DNA of 64,000 nt, from assembly GCA_021463145.1 (NCBI GenBank), contig JAJTWZ010000010.1, positions 6,766 through 70,765 on the forward strand, given 5' to 3'. The first letter of the stretch is position 1. Each line of letters opens with the position of its first letter. Below, in pieces: positions 24,128 to 30,713 of this stretch. The DNA comes from Blastocatellia bacterium (GTDB lineage: Bacteria > Acidobacteriota > Blastocatellia > UBA7656 > JADIYM01). Below the pieces are notes generated by a model, which ran no database searches, had not been told where the DNA came from, and saw only the letters and a list, made by a program, of their open reading frames with translations. The position numbers and the translations under genes were made by a program.

Positions 24128-24931
24128 TCAGTTGATCAGCAGATCCTTGGCCGTTTCGGGTGTGATCGTCAGCCGGCGGAGGACGATGCCGGTGTTGTCC
24201 GGAAAACGGGCGTTTTGACCGTTGATCTGCAATGCGATCGCGCGCGTGTTGCCGATGCTCAGGTCCACGGATTCGGTCGCGCGAATCATGGCTTCCTCTC
24301 CAATCTGCAGTTCCTTCTGCACCGGCTCGCCATTATCCGCGGTGTACTTCACCCAGCAGGTGTCTAGCGCCTTTAGCGTCACACGAATCTCTCCGTCGAC
24401 GACTTCAGGTTGGATTGAGACAGGCGATCCGCCCGGCGCCGCCGACGGTTCGGGATTGGGCTCGGCTTTGGGATTCTGCGACGGCCTGGTCACGGGCGCG
24501 ACCGCCGCAGGCTGCTGCGAGTATCTCCAGACGGCGTAAGCTCCGCCGATGAACACGACGGCGAGCAATCCCGCCACGATTGCGGCCGGCCAGAACCCGG
24601 CCGACGGCTCCTTGAACACGAACGGTTCGGCGTCGTCGAGCGGTGGCACGTCGGGATCGCAGACGGCGGCCTCTGCCCCCGTTTGCTGCTGATAGAGCGA
24701 CACGGCCTCGTCCTCGTCCATCTTGACGTACCTTGCGAACGCCTTGACGAACGATCGAGCATAAATGCCTTCGGGAAGGACACCGAACTCGTCGGCCTCG
24801 ATCGCTTTCAGGAAGCGAGTGCCGATCCGGGTGGATTCCGCGATTTCCGTCAGCGACAGGCCCAGTGCCTCGCGCCGACGCTTCAGTTCTTGTCCGAGCA
24901 TATTCAACGCCTCGACCGGAACGTCGGCCAT
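24128..24931 (-). CDS. rodZ: RodZ-like cytoskeleton protein (helix-turn-helix, transmembrane segment and C-terminal DUF4115-like domain)
   Basis: The N-terminus is an XRE-type helix-turn-helix (LGQELKRRREALGLSLTEIAESTRIGTRFLKAIEADEFGVLP). A single transmembrane helix and a Pro-rich linker follow, then a C-terminal beta-rich domain. Confidence 0.75.
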   Translation of the reverse strand: MADVPVEALNMLGQELKRRREALGLSLTEIAESTRIGTRFLKAIEADEFGVLPEGIYARSFVKAFARYVKMDEDEAVSLYQQQTGAEAAVCDPDVPPLDDAEPFVFKEPSAGFWPAAIVAGLLAVVFIGGAYAVWRYSQQPAAVAPVTRPSQNPKAEPNPEPSAAPGGSPVSIQPEVVDGEIRVTLKALDTCWVKYTADNGEPVQKELQIGEEAMIRATESVDLSIGNTRAIALQINGQNARFPDNTGIVLRRLTITPETAKDLLIN

Positions 24932-25158
24932 GCCGCCGGGCGTCGCTCACTTCGCCATGCGGTGCCTGTACTTCCTCTGGGCAATGACGGGGCCACCCAA
25001 ATACTAGTCCCGCTTCGCTTTAGTGTCAACTTTTCAGATTTGGAAGCGGTCCCCGGGCCAATCTTGCACATGGGTCCGGAGCTTTGGTAGCGTAGGGCTT
25101 CCCTCGGCAACGTCCTGTTCGCCCGCCGCGGCGAGACACACATAAGGAGACAGTCAGC

Positions 25159-25545
25159 ATGGCTATGGAAGCGCTCGGAATGGTCGAGACCAAGGGCTTC
25201 GTCGGTGCGGTCGAAGCCGCCGATGCGATGGTCAAGGCCGCGAACGTGATCCTCATCGGCAAGGAATACATCGGGTCGGGCTACGTGACCGTATTCGTTC
25301 GCGGTGACGTCGGTGCGGTAAAGGCCGCGACCGACGCCGGTGCGGCCGCAGCTCGACGCGTGGGCGAGCTCGTGAGCGTTCACGTCATTCCGCGGCCCCA
25401 CGTCGAGGTCGAGCGAGCCCTGGCGGCGCGAGGCATAGCGGTTCCGGCACACCTGGGAGCCGGAGCGGACAGGGCGCAGTTGACGGGCGGTGACGGCAGC
25501 CACTCGCTTCCGTCGACCGGCGCCAAGGATCGCGAGAAGAAGTAA
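25159..25545 (+). CDS. Bacterial microcompartment shell protein, BMC-H (PduA/EutM/CcmK family)
   Basis: The BMC-domain signature ([81 protein letters not shown]) is followed by a C-terminal tail of about 40 aa. An AAGGAGA ribosome-binding site precedes the start. Confidence 0.9.
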
Positions 25546-25650
25546 CACTCCACGCCGCGGTGTCCGTGCCGCGTAGCGCCGATGCTAGAGCTCCGAATGC
25601 GCGTGACGCACCGGGGCTCTTGTTCACCTGGCTGGGAAAGTGAGCCGCTA

Positions 25651-27366
25651 ATGCCGAACGACAAGGATCTCGAGTCGGTCCAGCAAGCGCGAAATCTCGT
25701 CGATGCGGCGCACGAGGCGCAGCAGCGCCTCGCCGGATTCGACCAGGCACGGATCGATCGCATTTGCGAGGCCATGTCAGCCGCCGGTCTCGCCGAGGCC
25801 GAGCGCCTCGGACTGCTTGCGCACGAGGAGACGGGATTCGGTATCCCGTCCGACAAGACCGTGAAGAACACGTTCGCGGCCGGCGACGTGCACGCATTCT
25901 TCAAGCCGATGCGGACGGTAGGGATCATCAGGCAGACCGAGACAATTCTGGAGATCGGGTCGCCGCGCGGCGTCGTGGCCGCCATCATCCCTTCCACGAA
26001 TCCGACGTCCACGGCAATCTTCAAGTGCCTGATCTCGATCAAGTCGCGAAACGGTGTGGTGTTGAGCCCGCATCCGAGTGCGGCTCGCTGCATCGCCGAG
26101 AGTGTCCGGATCATGTCCGAAGCCGCGGTCGCCGCAGGCGCGCCTCCCGGAATCATCGGGTGTATGACCGTTGCGACCGTTGAAGGCACCGAAGCGCTGA
26201 TGAAGCACAAGCGCACGGCAGTCATCCTCGCGACCGGCGGAATCGGACTCGTGCGCGCCGCTTACAGTTCCGGCAAGCCTGCATTCGGAGTCGGTCCCGG
26301 CAACGTGCCTGCCTATGTCGACGGCTCCGCGGACGTAAGCAAGGCGGCGCGCGACATCCTGACCGGCACCTGCTTCGACAACGGGACGATTTGCGCCTCT
26401 GAGCAGTCTGTCGTTGCGGACAGAGCCGTCGACGGTGCCCTCAGGGCAGCTTTCGAGGATCACGGGGCGCGCTTCCTGACCGCCGATGAAGCAGAGAAGC
26501 TGACCAGGGTCGTCGCGACTGGCACGAATGCGCTCAACCCGAAGGTCGTAGGGAAGCCCGCCAGGGTTATCGCGGAGATGGCCGGCATATCGTTGCCCGA
26601 CGGTGTCCGCTGCATGATCGCGGAGGTCGCGGGAGTCGGTCGCGACTATCCGCTCTCGATGGAGAAGCTCTCTCCGATCCTCACTTACTACACTGTCGAC
26701 GGGACGGCCGACGGCGTCGAGCTCTGCCAGAAAGTATTGCAATATGGCGGGATGGGCCATACCGCTTCGATCCATTCGCGCAAGCGGGATGTGATCGAGT
26801 TTTACGGCGAGCGCATCCCCGCGTCGCGAGTCATCGTGAACTCTCCGTCCACACACGGCGCCATCGGCTTCTCGACGGATCTGGAGCCGAGCATGACGCT
26901 GGGGTGCGGAAGCTGGGGTGGCAACGTTACGTCGGACAACATCTCGCCCTGGCACCTGATGGACATCAAGCGCATCGCGTTCGAGACGCGCGAGGTCGTT
27001 CCGAATGCCGCGCCGAAACCCGTGGCCAAGCGACCGGCCGCGACGTCGATTTCGCCGGCCCTCGCGGCGGCGCCGATCGAACGTGCCGACATCGCATCGC
27101 TCGTCGACCGCTTCATCGCCGAGCGCCGCAGCGAGGCTCCGCCGGCAGAGCCGGCACCGGCCGCGGCGCCCGCGGCTGCACCGGCCGCGACGTCGGAGCC
27201 AGCGCCCCCCGCACTGGCACCGGGACCTGCGTCCGAGTTCGTCTGCGAGGACGACGTCCGCCGCGCCATCAACGAGGGCCGCAAGATTCCGATCGATGCA
27301 AAGACCATCATCACGCCGGCTGCCCGTGAGCTCGGCGACGCGCGCGACGTCTTCGCGCGCCGGTAG
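25651..27366 (+). CDS. CoA-acylating aldehyde dehydrogenase (PduP/EutE-like) with a C-terminal Ala/Pro-rich linker and an encapsulation-peptide-like helix
   Basis: The aldehyde dehydrogenase core spans residues about 1-460 ([31 protein letters not shown]...CASEQS...GCGSWGGN). A linker of about 70 aa follows ([23 protein letters not shown]...[32 protein letters not shown]), then an amphipathic segment ([31 protein letters not shown]). The start is the ATG at 25651; the track ORF begins at 25582. Confidence 0.88.
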
Positions 27367-27375
27367 GAACCGCTC

Positions 27376-27711
27376 ATGTTTCTCGGGCACGTCGTCGGCA
27401 CCGTCTGGTCCACCAAGAAGACCCCGAACCTCGAGGGCATCAAGTTCCTCATCGTGCACCCGTACAACCTCAACAAGGAGCCGGGCACGGACATCGTCGT
27501 CGTGGCCGATCGTCTTGGCGCCGGCATCGGCGAAACGGTGATCTGCGCCTACGGGAAGGCGGCCCGTTCGGCGATCGGCGATCAGGATATGTCGATCGAA
27601 GCGGCTGTCGTCGGAATCGTCGACAGAATGGATCTTCAGGACTGCGGCTCGGACGATACCGTCGAAGCGGCGCGCCGCCTTCGGTCCGCGGGCGAGGGAG
27701 GCGCTGTCTGA
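27376..27711 (+). CDS. Bacterial microcompartment vertex protein, BMC-P (EutN/PduN/CcmL family)
   Basis: The sequence matches the EutN/CcmL pattern throughout (MFLGHVVGTVWSTKKTPNLEGIKFLIVHP...VVVADRLGAGIGETVICAYGKAARSAIGD...AAVVGIVD). It starts 9 nt after the aldehyde dehydrogenase stop. Confidence 0.88.
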   Translation: MFLGHVVGTVWSTKKTPNLEGIKFLIVHPYNLNKEPGTDIVVVADRLGAGIGETVICAYGKAARSAIGDQDMSIEAAVVGIVDRMDLQDCGSDDTVEAARRLRSAGEGGAV

Positions 27712-28673
27712 TGGCGAAGCGACGAACGACTGCTCCGCTCACCTCGGACGAACTGCAGGAACACCTGGTCGACATCTCTCCAGACGAGGTGCTCGAGCGG
27801 TTCGACGAGATTTTCGGACGGGACATCGATCTTCCGGAATCCCTTGAAGAGCTCTTGTCGCTCGACGACTACGTCGACTCGGAGTTGCGGGAGATGTTCC
27901 AGTCGATCATTGCTCAATATATGCGGCCGATCGAGTATGCGATCGAGCAGATTGGCGCCGGCGAGGCGACGCGGCGGACGGCCGAGGAAGCGGTCGAGGC
28001 GCTTCGTCCCATACGCGAGGCCTCCGAGTCGCTCGAGTACGACGACATCACGGAGATCCTCATCCGGATCGAGCAGCCGCTCGCCGAGTTTGCGAACGGC
28101 ACGAAGCGGAAGCTCATCAAGCGTGACATCACTGAGTTGAACGACGCCTGGAAACAGCTCGGCATGCTCCTCAGGCGCGAGTCCGATCGCGACGCGTCGC
28201 TGCCGACCTTGCTCTCGCTTGGAGGGCTGCCGCGCTACCTCGACGGCGTGACGACGGCACAGGTTCGCAGCCTGCGTGCGGCGGGCATAACGTCGCTCAA
28301 CGATCTCGCGGACGCGCCGGTCGAAGACATCATGGCCGTCGCCGGGCTGTCGCGCACGAGCGCCGAGCGGATCAGGGCCTTCTCGGCGGGGTCGGTGTCG
28401 GTCGCGGCGGCGGAGAATCGCGTCGGCTCGTCGGGGAAGCTTCCCGACGGCTGGATGCGCCTCGACATCGAGAGCGACACATTCCGCGGGCGAATCACCT
28501 TCGAGTACGCATCGATCGCGAAGTACCTCGAGCCGATCCTTGCGAAGCTCTCCGAAGACGGAAAGAAATCCCGCGTCGCGAAGCCGAAGTCCCGTCGAAC
28601 GACGAAGCCGCTCGTTTCGCAGCCCAAGCCCGCGCCGCGCGCGAAGCGCAGTCCCAGGAAAGCCACGACATGA
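27711..28673 (+). CDS. Hypothetical protein in the BMC operon: acidic helical N-terminus, helix-hairpin-helix-like motif and strongly basic C-terminal tail
   Basis: The 320 aa ORF is coupled to the BMC-P gene by a TGATG overlap. A helix-hairpin-helix-like segment is LRAAGITSLNDLADAPVEDIMAVAGLSRTSAERI. The tail is Lys/Arg/Pro-rich (KKSRVAKPKSRRTTKPLVSQPKPAPRAKRSPRKATT). No family was recognised. Confidence 0.6.
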   Translation: MAKRRTTAPLTSDELQEHLVDISPDEVLERFDEIFGRDIDLPESLEELLSLDDYVDSELREMFQSIIAQYMRPIEYAIEQIGAGEATRRTAEEAVEALRPIREASESLEYDDITEILIRIEQPLAEFANGTKRKLIKRDITELNDAWKQLGMLLRRESDRDASLPTLLSLGGLPRYLDGVTTAQVRSLRAAGITSLNDLADAPVEDIMAVAGLSRTSAERIRAFSAGSVSVAAAENRVGSSGKLPDGWMRLDIESDTFRGRITFEYASIAKYLEPILAKLSEDGKKSRVAKPKSRRTTKPLVSQPKPAPRAKRSPRKATT

Positions 28674-29122
28674 CCGAAGAGCAGATCATCTACGAGATCA
28701 CGAAGGCCGTCTTCAACCGCCTCGGCACGTCCGTCGAGCGATCGACGGTCGAGGATCTCGTCGCCGACGTGTATCGCGCGGTGCGACCTGCGGTGGCGGC
28801 CGGACCGGGCGCCGCCGCCGCTGCTGCGCCGCGCGACGAACGCGGTTCGCAGGATCGCGTGATCATCTCGGTCTTCGGGCTCGACCGGCCAGGCATCGTG
28901 TCGGCCGTGAGCTCGGTGCTTGCCGACGCCGACTGTTCGATCGTCGACATCAACCAGACGGTGGTGGGCGGGAAGTTCGCGATGGTGCTCGTGGCCGACA
29001 GCCGCCGTTCGACAACGGGCGTGGCCGAACTGAAGGACCGGTTCCGCGAGGCCGGACAGCGGCTCGGTGTGAACATCTACGCCCAGCGGGAAGACCTCTT
29101 CATCGCGATGCACCGCGTCTGA
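28670..29122 (+). CDS. ACT-domain protein with an N-terminal amphipathic-helix extension and Ala/Pro/Gly linker (possible BMC cargo or regulator)
   Basis: The ACT-like fold spans RVIISVFGLDRPGIVSAVSSVLADADCSIVDINQTVVGGKFAMVLVADS. The N-terminus has amphipathic helices (EEQIIYEITKAVFNRLG, VEDLVADVYRAV) followed by a linker (PAVAAGPGAAAAAAP). The gene is coupled to the upstream gene by an ATGA overlap. Confidence 0.65.
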   Translation: MTEEQIIYEITKAVFNRLGTSVERSTVEDLVADVYRAVRPAVAAGPGAAAAAAPRDERGSQDRVIISVFGLDRPGIVSAVSSVLADADCSIVDINQTVVGGKFAMVLVADSRRSTTGVAELKDRFREAGQRLGVNIYAQREDLFIAMHRV

Positions 29123-29142
29123 CGCGGCGCGCCGCGATTTGT
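29123..29142 (+). terminator. Intrinsic terminator closing the BMC operon
   Basis: A GC palindrome CGCGGCGCGCCGCG (29123-29136) begins immediately after the ACT-gene stop and is followed by ATTTGT. Confidence 0.5.
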
Positions 29143-29268
29143 AGGATCGACTCGTCGAACGCCGTCCGCGACCGCTCCGCGGTCGTACGCGCCGAGTGTG
29201 TAAACTGATCCACGACGCGAGATTACGGCGAGTCTCCGTCCCAGATGCGCTTGCATCGTGTCCAGCGA

Positions 29269-29283
29269 TGACTAGAATAGTCA
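29269..29283 (+). promoter_or_regulatory. Palindromic operator candidate (TGACTA-GAA-TAGTCA) for the toxin-antitoxin operon
   Basis: A perfect 6-bp inverted repeat lies 14 nt upstream of the antitoxin start codon, in a locally AT-richer stretch. This placement is typical of autoregulated type II toxin-antitoxin operons. Confidence 0.4.
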
Positions 29284-29296
29284 CGAGGCATTCATA

Positions 29297-29581
29297 TTGG
29301 AAACCGTCAACATCGCGCAGCTCAAGAGCGAACTGAGTCGATATCTCTCGCTGGTGCGTGCCGGATCGGAGGTCATTGTCCGCGATCGCAATATTCCGGT
29401 GGCAATGCTCGTGCCGATCGATCTCGAGGACCTGACCTTGGAAGACATTGCCTTGGTAGCCTCGGGACGTCTGCGCCCACCCCGGTCGAAGCTGTCGAGC
29501 GATTTCTGGCGACGAACTCGCCCGAGCGTGAACATCGAGGATCTTGACCGTGCCATCGAAGCGGATCGCGAGGATCGCTGA
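29297..29581 (+). CDS. Type II antitoxin, Phd/YefM family
   Basis: The 94 aa protein has an N-terminus (VNIAQLKSELSRYLSLVRAGSEVIVRDRNIPVAMLVPID) matching the Phd/YefM fold pattern. It uses a TTG start and overlaps the downstream PIN-domain gene. Confidence 0.7.
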   Translation: METVNIAQLKSELSRYLSLVRAGSEVIVRDRNIPVAMLVPIDLEDLTLEDIALVASGRLRPPRSKLSSDFWRRTRPSVNIEDLDRAIEADREDR

Positions 29582-30008
29582 ACACGCGTTCTGGGACGCG
29601 AGCGCGGTTGCGCCACTGTGCATTCGGCAGCCTGCATCGGCAGACTCGCGCGTCCTTGCCCGGCGATACGGCATCGTGGCCTGGTGGGGCACACCCGTGG
29701 AGGTCACCAGCGCGGTCGCTAGACTCGCGCGTGAAGGCGTGCTCGATGTGGTGTCGGCTTCGAAGGCACTCGACGTACTTGACGCCCTCGAGCAATCGTG
29801 GCTCGAGGTTGTTCCGAGTGACGAAATCCGGGACGTGTCGCGACAATTGTTAAGGGCCTACTCGCTGCGGGCGGCGGACTCGCTGCAACTTGCGGCGGGA
29901 CTCGTCTGGTCGAACTCGAAGCCGTCCGGACGGGTGTTCATCTGCAGGGACAACCGGCTTGCTGATGCGGCCACGGCAATCGGCTTCGACGTTCGGCGGC
30001 CCAGTTGA
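29550..30008 (+). CDS. vapC: Type II toxin, PIN-domain ribonuclease (VapC family)
   Basis: The protein is about 150 aa with PIN-like acidic positions (FWDASAV...; ...DSLQLAAGL...). It overlaps the antitoxin gene. The start is ambiguous between a TTG at 29544 and a GTG at 29550. Confidence 0.65.
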   Translation: MPSKRIARIAEHAFWDASAVAPLCIRQPASADSRVLARRYGIVAWWGTPVEVTSAVARLAREGVLDVVSASKALDVLDALEQSWLEVVPSDEIRDVSRQLLRAYSLRAADSLQLAAGLVWSNSKPSGRVFICRDNRLADAATAIGFDVRRPS

Positions 30009-30203
30009 TGCGTGTAACGATGAAGGCATTTGCTCGACGAGGTTGGTATCGTGCCTACGAGAACCTGCTGGTCTCGACAAGTGGGTCGTCGAGACTACAC
30101 GTGTTCGACCTGTCGCCTTATGCGCACGGAGCCACGACAAAGCTATGAACAACCTAGCGAAGAGTAGTGCAAAGGGAGCGGGGAAGCGAAAGCTGTCTCC
30201 TGA

Positions 30204-30713
30204 ATGACTCGAATGTCAGACGATCCACGAACACTCAGTCACGTCGATGCGGATGGACGCATCCGCATGGTCGACGTCGGCGACAAGCCCGTGACTTCGC
30301 GGGTCGCGACCGCGTCCGGGTTCGTGCGCATGAGCGCGGCGACGGTCGACGCGATCCGCGAGCGCCGGACACCGAAGGGCGATCCGCTCGAGACCGCGCG
30401 CCTCGCCGGTATCATGGCCGCGAAGCAGACTGCGACGCTCATTCCGCTCTGTCACTCGCTCGCGCTCTCGTCGGTCGACGTGCGCGCCGAACTAGTCGAC
30501 GACGGCGTCCGCCTCGAGGCGACGGCCCTCGTCGACGGCCGCACCGGCGTCGAGATGGAAGCGCTCACGGCCGTTTCGGTCGCGGCGCTGACGATCTACG
30601 ACATGTGCAAGGCGATCGATCGTGAGATGGTCATCGGCGAGATCCGGCTCGAGCGAAAGTCCGGCGGGCGGTCCGGGGACTACCAGCGCGCGACCGAACC
30701 GTCCGGGACGTGA
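30204..30713 (+). CDS. moaC: Cyclic pyranopterin monophosphate synthase MoaC
   Basis: The sequence matches MoaC across its length ([29 protein letters not shown]...[31 protein letters not shown]...). Confidence 0.9.

What the first reader, a model, noticed from the sequence alone, without database searches (positions are those of the whole stretch)
27711..28673. Helix-hairpin-helix protein with a Lys/Arg/Pro-rich tail encoded inside the BMC operon: possible nucleic-acid-binding or scaffold component
The protein is translationally coupled on both sides (TGATG and ATGA overlaps). Its N-terminal third is acidic and helical, and includes an amphipathic stretch (EVLERFDEIFGR) that could itself be a targeting helix. 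The central region has a helix-hairpin-helix-like motif. The last roughly 35 residues are extremely basic, in a histone- or ribosomal-protein-like way. BMC loci rarely encode such proteins; the closest known analogy is the nucleic-acid-binding C-terminal domain of EutK. It could be a novel regulator, a cargo-organising scaffold, or a nucleic-acid tether.
Basis: inference. Interest (0 to 1): 0.6.

Follow-up and report, generated by a model that had tools for sequence, protein, structure and literature searches.

The report
DNA-binding-type adaptor protein in microcompartment operon
A real, conserved gene inside a soil Acidobacteria microcompartment operon encodes an acidic helical protein with a helix-hairpin-helix domain and a histone-like basic tail. 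It most likely links the protein organelle to DNA, but it is an optional, lineage-specific extra and its function is untested.

Summary
ORF 27711-28673 (+) encodes a 320-aa protein, overlapping BMC-P by 1 nt and an ACT-domain gene by 4 nt.

**Anatomy:**
- acidic N-terminus
- four-helix bundle whose predicted fold resembles HPt domains but has no conserved His
- Rad51-N/NusA-type (HhH)2 domain
- beta-beta-alpha module
- K/R/P/A-rich tail (+14, no acidic residues)

**Locus:** it matches the AldDh "satellite" of the ACI-type microcompartment of Acidobacteria (Sutter 2021). That catalog's ACI description does not mention this protein.

**Conservation:**
- Full-length orthologues form one small Blastocatellia family. 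In every contig inspected they lie between BMC-P and ACT.
- A second subfamily (about 25% identity) has a C-terminal coiled coil instead. It sits between AldDh and ACT in some loci, but away from shell genes in Chloracidobacterium.
- The bundle+HhH core also occurs in hundreds of uncharacterised proteins outside BMC loci.
- 62 of 64 untruncated ACI AldDh loci sampled lack the gene. It is therefore an optional accessory.

**Best reading (about 0.4, inferred):** a single-protein BMC-to-nucleoid tether or adaptor, analogous to PhaH, PhaF, PhaM and AlgP.

**Rivals:** a luminal scaffold, an ACT-linked regulator, or an unrelated nucleoid protein.

It does not meet the McdB or EutK criteria tested. 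Interest is moderate.

The parts
25159..25545 (+). BMC-H shell hexamer gene (128 aa, with a C-terminal extension); first gene of the operon
   Evidence: PF00936, E 9e-29; EutM-like by NCBIfam
25651..27366 (+). ACI-type acylating aldehyde dehydrogenase. The true start is M24 of ORF 25582. The encapsulation-peptide-like helix [18 protein letters not shown] is at 27076-27129. It is followed by an A/P-rich linker and a conserved ~43-aa terminal domain (27235-27363).
   Evidence: PF00171; TIGR02518, E 1e-172; alignment of 6 orthologues; coordinates. Matches the Sutter 2021 description of the ACI satellite AldDh.
27376..27711 (+). BMC-P pentamer (vertex) gene, 111 aa; its stop overlaps the start of the HhH gene by 1 nt
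   Evidence: PF03319, E 8e-28; sequence
27711..28673 (+). The finding: a 320-aa HhH protein (whole gene including the stop codon)
27711..27830 (+). aa 1-40. Contains the N-terminal motif (K/R)(K/R)xTTAPLT, invariant in this subfamily only, and two short acidic helices that include EVLERFDEIF. Net charge is -6.
   Evidence: Invariant T6, T7, P9, L10; pLDDT 41-66; charge
27831..28193 (+). aa 41-161. Acidic four-helix bundle (net -12) carrying the family signature ELRxMFxxIxxQYxxP. The fold resembles HPt domains, but there is no conserved His.
28212..28412 (+). aa 168-234. (HhH)2 domain with two hairpins (DGV at 178-180, AGL at 211-213) and a connector around G192. Net charge is 0.
   Evidence: PF14520, 32.7 bits; RAD51 NTD E 3.8e-8, NusA AR E 2e-6, L32e E 8e-5; pLDDT 82-89; G192 is invariant even in the broad family
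28437..28574 (+). aa 243-288. Beta-hairpin (GWMRLDIE / FRGRITFEY) followed by an amphipathic helix (IAKYLEPILAKL, pattern hxxhhxxhh). It follows a variable linker and is found only in this subfamily. It is a candidate oligomerisation or shell-docking module.
28575..28670 (+). aa 289-320. Disordered K/R/P/A/S/T-rich tail of the histone-H1 / PhaF type.
   Evidence: 14 K/R and 0 D/E in the last 37 aa. The composition is conserved in 22/22 homologues (net +5 to +14) although the sequence is not. pLDDT below 50.
28670..29122 (+). ACT-domain protein (UPF0237-like), 150 aa. It has an N-terminal encapsulation-peptide-like helix (28676-28726) and an A/G/P linker. Its start overlaps the HhH stop by 4 nt.
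   Evidence: PF13740, E 2e-15; NF001220, E 1.5e-25; coordinates

Best explanation
**Proposal.** The protein is an accessory adaptor of the ACI-type microcompartment that physically links the organelle to nucleic acid, most likely the nucleoid.

**Proposed mechanism (inferred, not shown).**
1. The acidic N-terminal half (the TTAPLT motif, the short helices and the four-helix bundle), the beta-beta-alpha module, or both, dock onto a BMC component. The candidates are BMC-P, BMC-H, or EP-bearing cargo such as ACT.
2. The beta-beta-alpha module makes the protein multivalent. In the sister subfamily the coiled coil would do this.
3. The near-neutral (HhH)2 domain and the histone-H1-like tail bind DNA without sequence specificity.
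4. The result is that BMCs are spread over the nucleoid and inherited at division without a ParA-type motor. PhaH (HhH domain) and PhaF, PhaM and AlgP (basic tails) do this for PHB and polyphosphate granules.

**What is shown.** The domain anatomy, the operon position and coupling, and the conservation pattern.

**What is inferred.** DNA binding, BMC binding, location outside the shell, and any positioning role.
For: 1. Two independent modules are of a non-specific nucleic-acid-binding type. One is a canonical (HhH)2 with conserved Gly hairpins and roughly zero net charge, unlike the acidic, protein-binding NusA AR repeats. The other is a K/R/P/A tail whose charge, but not its sequence, is conserved in all 22 homologues.
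2. Gene position is fixed between BMC-P and the EP-bearing ACT gene, with spacing of -8 to +13 nt. This holds in every orthologue contig inspected, at 50-100% identity.
3. A sister subfamily at about 25% identity has a different C-terminus (a coiled coil ending in an RRRKR...RRR patch). It sits at the equivalent place, between AldDh and ACT, in L008, L072 and L097. Both forms therefore share the plan [quoted passage not shown].
4. That plan resembles the documented single-protein organelle-nucleoid tethers. In those, the N-terminus binds the granule, and the C-terminal histone-like tail or HhH binds DNA non-specifically (review PMC13052382).
5. The bundle+HhH core also occurs outside BMC loci. 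The conserved activity is therefore BMC-independent, as DNA binding would be, and the lineage-specific ends would supply cargo specificity.
6. No ParA/MinD-type Walker A (KGGxGK[ST] or GGxGK[ST]) is encoded anywhere in the 64-kb window.
Against: - No binding of any kind has been tested.
- (HhH)2 domains can be purely protein-binding, as in NusA AR1/AR2.
- A basic tail could equally bind acidic protein surfaces.
- The topology problem is unsolved. If the amphipathic helices act like encapsulation peptides, the protein would be luminal and could not reach the nucleoid.
- The gene is absent from 62 of 64 untruncated ACI AldDh loci sampled. Most ACI BMCs therefore do without it.
- BMC-P sequences do not differ between loci with and without it.
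- In Chloracidobacterium the closest coiled-coil homologue is not linked to shell genes.
- Homology to PhaH could not be tested.
Confidence: 0.4

Rival explanations
1. **Luminal scaffold or condensation factor**, working like CsoS2, CcmM or CcmN. The acidic N-terminal half and the basic tail form a diblock polyampholyte. This would coacervate with itself, with EP-bearing cargo (AldDh, ACT) and with the inner shell surface, nucleating the cargo core. The HhH domain would then be a protein-protein module.
For: - Charge segregation is strong: -18 over aa 1-161 and +14 in the tail.
- Two helices fit encapsulation-peptide heptad patterns. VLERFDEIF at aa 27 matches the pattern of the ACT EP. IAKYLEPIL at aa 269 matches the hxxhhxxhh pattern of the AldDh EP and follows a variable linker.
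- The gene is translationally coupled between a shell gene and a cargo gene.
- Only weak COMM-like matches hint at an oligomerising beta-beta-alpha module.
Against: - The bundle+HhH core is shared with many proteins that are not in BMC loci. The core is therefore not a BMC-lumen invention.
- The N-terminal helix is also present in the unlinked Chloracidobacterium homologue and lacks the flexible linker typical of EPs.
- The same heptad pattern also occurs inside the bundle (aa 59, 63), so it is not specific.
- Most ACI loci assemble without the protein.
Confidence: 0.25
2. **General nucleoid-associated or cell-organisation protein with no BMC-specific role.** Its gene would merely have landed in the operon in a few Blastocatellia lineages.
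For: - Remote homologues lie next to unrelated genes. These include PPIase/SpoU in Chloracidobacterium, LpxD, a DUF4388-PilZ-HEAT-Arf-GTPase operon, and an AAA_22 ATPase.
- The gene is absent from most ACI loci.
Against: - Two subfamilies with different C-termini both sit immediately upstream of the EP-ACT gene, inside the BMC operon.
- Start/stop overlaps are conserved from 50 to 100% identity.
- This subfamily has its own conserved N-terminal motif and beta-beta-alpha module. These are not found in the unlinked relatives.
Confidence: 0.15
3. **DNA-binding half of a two-protein regulator.** The downstream ACT protein would sense a metabolite and modulate the HhH protein, as the DNA-binding-domain-less ACT protein GcvR acts through GcvA. 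Together they would control BMC gene expression.
For: - The HhH gene always sits directly upstream of ACT and is coupled to it.
- The ACT domain belongs to the ACT_6 class that includes GcvR.
- The bundle has an HPt-like predicted fold, and some remote homologues neighbour response regulators.
Against: - HhH domains and H1-like tails bind DNA without sequence specificity.
- The ACT protein carries an EP-like helix plus linker, and it keeps them in the 32 loci that lack HhH, where it pairs with DUF711 instead.
- No conserved His or Asp is available for phosphotransfer.
- No repeated operator-like element was looked for or seen.
Confidence: 0.1

Closest known systems
PhaH of Caulobacter crescentus (HhH-containing phasin) and PhaF, PhaM and AlgP (histone-like-tail tethers of PHB and polyphosphate granules)
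   Same: These are single polypeptides with an organelle-binding N-terminal helical part and a C-terminal non-specific DNA-binding part. The DNA-binding part is an HhH domain in PhaH and a K/A/P-rich tail in PhaF, PhaM and AlgP (PMC13052382). From my own knowledge, PhaF also has an oligomerisation element between the two parts. The window protein combines both kinds of DNA-binding module.
   Different: The organelle here is a protein-shelled metabolosome, not a polymer granule. There is no phasin domain. DNA binding and positioning are unproven here.
McdB (carboxysome positioning adaptor) and McdB-like proteins near PDU/GRM loci
   Same: It would be a BMC-associated adaptor connecting the organelle to the nucleoid. 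It is charge-rich and partly disordered, and it is encoded next to BMC genes (PMC11321042).
   Different: McdB acts through a ParA-type ATPase (McdA) and does not bind DNA itself. It has an invariant Trp or aromatic residue within the last few residues. Here there is no ParA-like gene in 64 kb, no aromatic residue in the last 37 residues, and there are intrinsic DNA-binding-type modules instead.
EutK C-terminal domain
   Same: A nucleic-acid-binding-type fold encoded in a metabolosome locus, with no known role.
   Different: EutK's domain is a helix-turn-helix fused to a BMC-H shell domain. This protein is free-standing, has no BMC domain, and uses (HhH)2 plus a basic tail.
RAD51/RadA N-terminal domain, NusA AR1/AR2, RNAP alpha-CTD, archaeal L32e N-terminal domain ((HhH)2 / HHH_5 class)
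   Same: These give the best sequence and structure matches to aa 170-235.
   Different: This is a domain-level relationship only. None of them has the bundle, the beta-beta-alpha module or the tail.
ACI-type BMC satellite locus (Sutter et al. 2021)
   Same: The genomic setting is the same: Acidobacteria; BMC-H plus an AldDh carrying an EP followed by a ~50-aa domain; and occasionally an extra BMC-P.
   Different: The published description mentions neither the HhH protein nor the ACT or DUF711 genes.

Membership tests
ACI-type BMC, AldDh satellite locus (Sutter 2021) | Found only in Acidobacteria (mainly subdivisions 4 and 6) | tested here: met
   Named homologues of the HhH protein and the AldDh come from Blastocatellia, Pyrinomonadaceae and Acidobacteriota MAGs. 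A few bins carry other names (Heliomicrobium, Clostridia).
ACI-type BMC, AldDh satellite locus (Sutter 2021) | AldDh with an encapsulation peptide near the C-terminus, followed by a small ~50-aa domain; BMC-H adjacent; sometimes a fourth BMC-P | tested here: met
   The helix IASLVDRF(I/L)AERR, an A/P-rich linker and a conserved 43-aa terminal domain are present in 6/6 aligned orthologues. BMC-H lies upstream and BMC-P downstream.
ACI-type BMC, AldDh satellite locus (Sutter 2021) | A main locus elsewhere in the genome (pfam00596 aldolase with C-terminal EP, hydroxyacid dehydrogenase, BMC-P triplet) | not testable with these tools
   There are no further BMC-H or BMC-P genes in the 64-kb window. 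The rest of the genome is not available.
(HhH)2 domain, Pfam HHH_5 (PF14520) | Two helix-hairpin-helix motifs with Gly-containing hairpins in a five-helix domain, scoring above the Pfam gathering threshold | tested here: met
   32.7 bits against a 27-bit cut-off, aa 178-222. The profile matches RAD51 NTD at E 3.8e-8. The AF2 domain has pLDDT 82-89. G192 and G212 are invariant.
(HhH)2 domain, Pfam HHH_5 (PF14520) | Non-sequence-specific DNA binding | not testable with these tools
   This needs EMSA or anisotropy. The only indirect evidence is the domain's roughly zero net charge.
McdB | Cognate ParA-type ATPase (McdA), usually encoded adjacent | tested here: not met
   There is no KGGxGK[ST] or GGxGK[ST] motif in any frame of the window. 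A distal gene cannot be excluded.
McdB | Invariant Trp (or Tyr/Phe in McdB-like proteins) within the last few C-terminal residues | tested here: not met
   The last 37 residues contain no aromatic residue in the window protein, and the homologue tails are equally free of them. The feature is defined in PMC11321042.
Encapsulation-peptide-bearing BMC cargo | A terminal ~15-20-aa amphipathic helix joined to the folded part by a poorly conserved flexible linker, and specific to BMC-associated homologues | tested here: inconclusive
   The N-terminal helix (aa 24-36) is amphipathic but has no low-complexity linker, and it is retained in the non-BMC-linked paralogue. The C-terminal helix (aa 266-288) follows a variable linker and fits hxxhhxxhh, but it is part of a beta-beta-alpha unit, and the same pattern also occurs inside the bundle.
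HPt (histidine phosphotransfer) domain | Four-helix bundle of HPt topology | tested here: met
HPt (histidine phosphotransfer) domain | Conserved phospho-accepting His on the second helix; sequence match to PF01627 | tested here: not met
   There is no His among the 48 invariant columns, and the corresponding helix reads ALRPIREAS. There is no Hpt hit at E<=0.1 and no HPt chain in the PDB profile search at E<=10.
EutK-type nucleic-acid-binding shell protein | BMC (PF00936) domain fused to a C-terminal helix-turn-helix domain | tested here: not met
   The protein has no BMC or HTH Pfam hit.
PhaF/PhaM/AlgP-type histone-like tethers | C-terminal K/A/P-rich histone-H1-like tail | tested here: met
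   Composition only: 18-37-residue tails with 7-14 K/R plus P and A in 22/22 sequences. No sequence homology is claimed.
PhaF/PhaM/AlgP-type histone-like tethers | N-terminal phasin or PhaC-binding domain; demonstrated nucleoid attachment | tested here: not met
   There is no phasin-family Pfam hit. Nucleoid attachment is not testable here. The relationship is therefore an analogy, not membership.

The most novel reading that the evidence does not exclude
The protein is the first direct, ParA-independent DNA tether for a metabolosome-type microcompartment. More broadly, the uncharacterised "HPt-like bundle + (HhH)2 + oligomeriser + basic end" family (hundreds of representatives, variable N-termini) would be a general class of adaptors that anchor different cellular structures to the nucleoid. 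A more extreme reading is also not excluded, at roughly 0.03 probability: the basic tail faces the lumen and recruits nucleic acid into the shell, as in a capsid.
Probability: 0.3. Interest if true: 0.75.

Novelty: new variant of a known kind. Interest (0 to 1): 0.5.

Why it matters
How metabolosomes (non-carboxysome BMCs) are spaced and inherited is largely unknown. The only characterised BMC positioning system is McdAB, which needs a ParA ATPase.

A BMC-operon protein carrying its own non-specific DNA-binding modules would give a simple, testable second route, the one already used for PHB and polyphosphate granules. It would also be a compact part for engineering the placement of synthetic microcompartments.

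It adds an undescribed component to the ACI organelle, which has no known function and occurs in abundant soil Acidobacteria. It also exposes a sizeable uncharacterised protein family built around a bundle+HhH core.

If the protein is instead a luminal scaffold, it would be a rare example of a dedicated cargo-organising protein in a metabolosome.

Tried and rejected
- **Genome scan with a mixed alignment (A2).** It failed because no stretch was conserved enough. I used the AldDh alignment instead.
- **afdb50 fold library.** It was not available.
- **Word-indexed search with a broad-family profile.** It returned only the already known close family plus two alignment members.
- **Cluster look-ups of 10 distant representatives.** They gave no names or taxa.
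- **PhaH paper (PubMed 37487601).** It is not held, so PhaH homology could not be tested.
- **Precomputed neighbour annotations "McdB (weak)" (L016) and "MamI" (L106).** Neither could be reproduced with the Pfam copy at hand. I did not use them as evidence.
- **Promoter/terminator scan of 24800-30300.** It was at background level.
- **Comparison of BMC-P from loci with and without the HhH gene.** No HhH-specific feature appeared.
- **Ferritin-like or di-iron reading of the bundle.** Rejected, because there are no conserved ExxH motifs.
- **True HPt domain.** Rejected, because there is no conserved His and no sequence signal.
- **McdB and EutK membership.** Rejected (see the membership table).
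- **Metagenome scan with A1.** It added only 4 loci, all with the same gene order.
Full report
**1. The observation**

The ORF at 27711-28673 (+) is real and reads as described.
- Its ATG shares one base with the TGA of the upstream EutN/CcmL-type BMC-P gene (27376-27711).
- Its TGA lies inside the ATGA that starts the downstream ACT-domain gene (28670-29122).
- A GGAGG precedes the start.
- GC3 is 0.83 against 0.64 for the window.
- The protein has 34 other homologue clusters, nearly all of similar length, with 48 invariant columns in a 22-sequence alignment.

It is therefore a gene under selection. The long antisense ORF is a high-GC artefact.

All four descriptive claims hold:
- The N-terminus is acidic and helical: 18 D/E against 6 K/R in the first 60 aa.
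- EVLERFDEIFGR lies at aa 26-37.
- The HHH_5 Pfam match at aa 178-222 is above the gathering cut-off.
- The tail is basic: 14 K/R, no D/E and 6 P in the last 37 aa.

**2. Anatomy**

The AlphaFold2 model built on the family alignment has a mean pLDDT of 70.7. It gives five parts.

1. *aa 1-40.* Low-confidence short helices, preceded by the motif (K/R)(K/R)xTTAPLT, in which T6, T7, P9 and L10 are invariant.
2. *aa 41-161.* A confident (pLDDT 76-93), acidic four-helix bundle.
   - There is no conserved His and no sequence-level HPt signal.
   - At most it has an HPt-like fold that cannot accept phosphate.
3. *aa 168-234.* An (HhH)2 domain with pLDDT 82-89.
   - The family profile matches the RAD51 N-terminal domain (E 3.8e-8), NusA acidic repeats (2e-6) and the archaeal L32e N-terminal domain (8e-5).
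   - Its net charge is about zero across the family.
4. *aa 243-288.* After a variable Ala/Ser/Gly linker comes a beta-hairpin plus an amphipathic helix.
   - Modelled alone, the hairpin reaches pLDDT 84-92.
   - This is a hint, no more, that the module is an oligomerising unit rather than a free-standing fold.
5. *aa 289-320.* A disordered K/R/P/A/S/T tail. Its composition and charge (net +5 to +14) are conserved in all 22 homologues, although its sequence is not.

**3. The locus**

The operon runs in this order:
- BMC-H (25159-25545).
- An acylating AldDh. Its true start is 25651. It has an EP-like helix, an A/P-rich linker and a conserved 43-aa terminal domain.
- BMC-P.
- The HhH protein.
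- An ACT protein with an N-terminal EP-like helix and linker.

This matches the published "satellite" locus of the ACI-type BMC:
[quoted passage not shown] - The AldDh has an EP near its C-terminus, followed by a ~50-aa domain.
- There is occasionally a fourth BMC-P (Sutter et al. 2021, PMC8217296).

That description mentions neither an HhH protein nor the ACT gene. PF14520 and "HHH" do not appear in the catalog supplements as held, although some files were cut when stored. No other shell gene lies in the window, so the main ACI locus, if present, is elsewhere in the genome.

**4. Conservation and distribution**

*Close family.*
- A search of 5.8 billion protein clusters found only 35, all Blastocatellia-type and nearly all about 303-327 aa.
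- A filter-free HMM search of 1.84 billion 50%-identity representatives found a single full-length representative.
- In every contig inspected, at 50-100% identity, the order is BMC-P, HhH, ACT, with -8 to +13 nt between genes.

*Sister subfamily.*
- Proteins of 443-499 aa share the N-terminal helices, the bundle and the HhH domain at about 25% identity (E 1e-30 to 1e-21).
- They replace the beta-beta-alpha module and tail with a long coiled coil that ends in an RRRKR...RRR patch.
- In L008, L072 and L097 this form lies between AldDh and ACT, with no BMC-P.
- In Chloracidobacterium the same form lies between a PPIase and a SpoU methylase, away from shell genes. Another copy follows LpxD.

*Broad family.*
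- 414 representatives (E<=1e-3) share only the bundle+HhH core (profile positions about 50-230). Their N- and C-termini vary.
- Their neighbours are unrelated to BMCs. They include a recurring DUF4388-PilZ-HEAT operon, followed by an Arf-like GTPase in one of the two cases, and an AAA_22 ATPase.
- None of these proteins has a known function.

*From the other side.* I scanned species-representative genomes with an AldDh alignment. This gave 588 relatives, of which 80 were kept. Of the 64 loci with enough downstream sequence:

| Downstream of AldDh | Loci |
|---|---|
| BMC-P, ACT, Zn-ribbon membrane protein, DUF711, BMC-H (no HhH) | 32 |
| No BMC-P, HhH or ACT | 30 |
| Coiled-coil HhH plus ACT | 2 |

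The HhH protein is therefore an optional, lineage-specific accessory. BMC-P itself does not differ between loci with and without it. Among ACT-containing loci that extend far enough downstream, ACT is accompanied either by DUF711 downstream or by HhH upstream, never by both.

**5. Mechanism**

The most economical reading is an adaptor that links the BMC to nucleic acid. The evidence is:
- Two modules are of the non-specific DNA-binding kind: an uncharged canonical (HhH)2, and a histone-H1-like tail conserved in charge only.
- Both subfamilies follow the same plan: an acidic helical part, then HhH, then a putative oligomeriser (beta-beta-alpha or coiled coil), then a basic end.
- Both subfamilies occupy the same slot, directly upstream of the EP-ACT gene.
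- The plan resembles the proteins known to tether other bacterial organelles to the nucleoid. PhaH uses an HhH domain, and PhaF, PhaM and AlgP use histone-like tails. In each, the N-terminus binds the organelle and the C-terminus binds DNA non-specifically (PMC13052382).
- No ParA-type ATPase is encoded in the window.
- The core occurs outside BMC loci, so the conserved activity is BMC-independent, as DNA binding would be. The subfamily-specific ends would confer cargo specificity.

All binding steps, the outside-the-shell location and any positioning effect are inferred. I put this reading at about 0.4.

**6. Rivals**

- *Luminal scaffold (0.25).* This rests on the striking charge segregation and on two helices with encapsulation-peptide-like heptad patterns. 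Against it: the N-terminal helix is also present in the unlinked paralogue and lacks a linker; the pattern also occurs inside the bundle; and the core is not BMC-specific.
- *Unrelated nucleoid or cell-organisation protein (0.15).* This fits the remote homologues' contexts and the gene's rarity among ACI loci. It fits poorly with the conserved coupling and with two subfamilies sharing the same slot.
- *ACT-linked regulator (0.1).* This is suggested by the constant HhH-ACT adjacency and by GcvR-class ACT domains. Against it: HhH domains and H1-type tails are not sequence-specific, and ACT keeps its EP and pairs with DUF711 where HhH is absent.
- *Nucleic-acid packaging into the lumen (about 0.03).* This cannot be excluded.

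**7. Comparison with known families**

- The protein is not a McdB. It has no partner ATPase nearby, no C-terminal aromatic residue, and intrinsic DNA-binding-type modules.
- It is not EutK-like in architecture.
- It is not a functional HPt domain.
- It is a member of the (HhH)2/HHH_5 domain class.
- It is a component of an ACI-type satellite locus.
- Its relationship to PhaH, PhaF, PhaM and AlgP is "plausibly works like", not membership. Homology to PhaH could not be tested.

**8. Verdict**

Its interpretation is partly supported.
- The tether option is the best of the three it offered.
- The proposed N-terminal targeting helix is not BMC-specific.
- The gene is neither core to the ACI BMC nor unique to BMC loci at the family level.

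It is a new variant of a known kind: an organelle adaptor with DNA-binding-type modules, here in a metabolosome operon. It sits in a BMC type of unknown function, and it opens onto a sizeable uncharacterised family. Interest is moderate (0.5), and would be higher if DNA tethering is shown.

Noticed in passing
L024:9365-11948 and 31 other loci (for example L036, L050); absent from window 1-64000: In Pyrinomonadaceae-type ACI satellite loci, the EP-bearing ACT (UPF0237-like) gene is followed by three genes. These are a Zn-ribbon membrane protein, a DUF711/UPF0210 gene (PF05167, E 4e-180) and a second BMC-H. HhH and DUF711 never co-occur in a locus. Where enough downstream sequence is available, ACT always has one or the other next to it. 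The ACI description in the BMC catalog mentions neither ACT nor DUF711.
   Followed up: partly
L013:1190-4986 and L106:4304-8745: Two remote bundle+HhH homologues (P0046, P0067) sit in the same operon: DUF4388/PatA_N, PilZ, a ~510-aa HEAT-repeat protein, then the HhH protein. In L106 these are followed by an Arf-like small GTPase and coiled-coil proteins. In L013 they are preceded by two response regulators. This looks like an uncharacterised cell-organisation or signalling module.
   Followed up: partly
L106:24-591 (-) and L016:10495-11343 (+): Precomputed annotations list two MamI-family (PF26391) genes 6.5 kb from P0067, and a weak McdB-family (PF26392) hit two genes downstream of P0059, beyond an AAA_22 ATPase gene. 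Neither hit could be reproduced with the Pfam copy available, so they remain unverified leads linking the broad family to organelle systems.
   Followed up: partly
window 27235-27363: The AldDh ends in a ~43-aa domain ([35 protein letters not shown]) after its EP and an A/P-rich linker. It is rich in invariant positions across 6 orthologues at 58-88% identity and has no Pfam match. This is the "~50-aa domain of unknown function" noted by Sutter et al.
   Followed up: partly
window 29297-30008: A Phd/YefM antitoxin gene (PF02604) and an overlapping 154-aa ORF that is probably its toxin partner (no Pfam match, so unconfirmed) are inserted between the ACT gene and moaC. Syntenic relatives (L001, L004, L005) go straight from ACT to moaC. 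The wider neighbourhood (porin, NfeD/Band_7, SPOR, esterase, RodZ, [BMC operon], MoaC, CheR, M50B peptidase, PBP1) is otherwise syntenic.
   Followed up: partly
window 27711-27749 (aa 1-13 of the HhH protein): The N-terminal motif (K/R)(K/R)xTTAPLT is invariant (T6, T7, P9, L10) in this subfamily but absent from the coiled-coil subfamily. It is a basic, unstructured, conserved peptide of the kind that usually docks onto a partner. From my own knowledge, T-x-x-L is also an FHA-type phosphothreonine context. Its partner is unknown.
   Followed up: no
window 25582-25650: The mechanical ORF for the AldDh starts 23 codons upstream of the start conserved in all orthologues (M24, MP(N/S)[11 protein letters not shown]). 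The gene should be annotated from 25651.
   Followed up: yes
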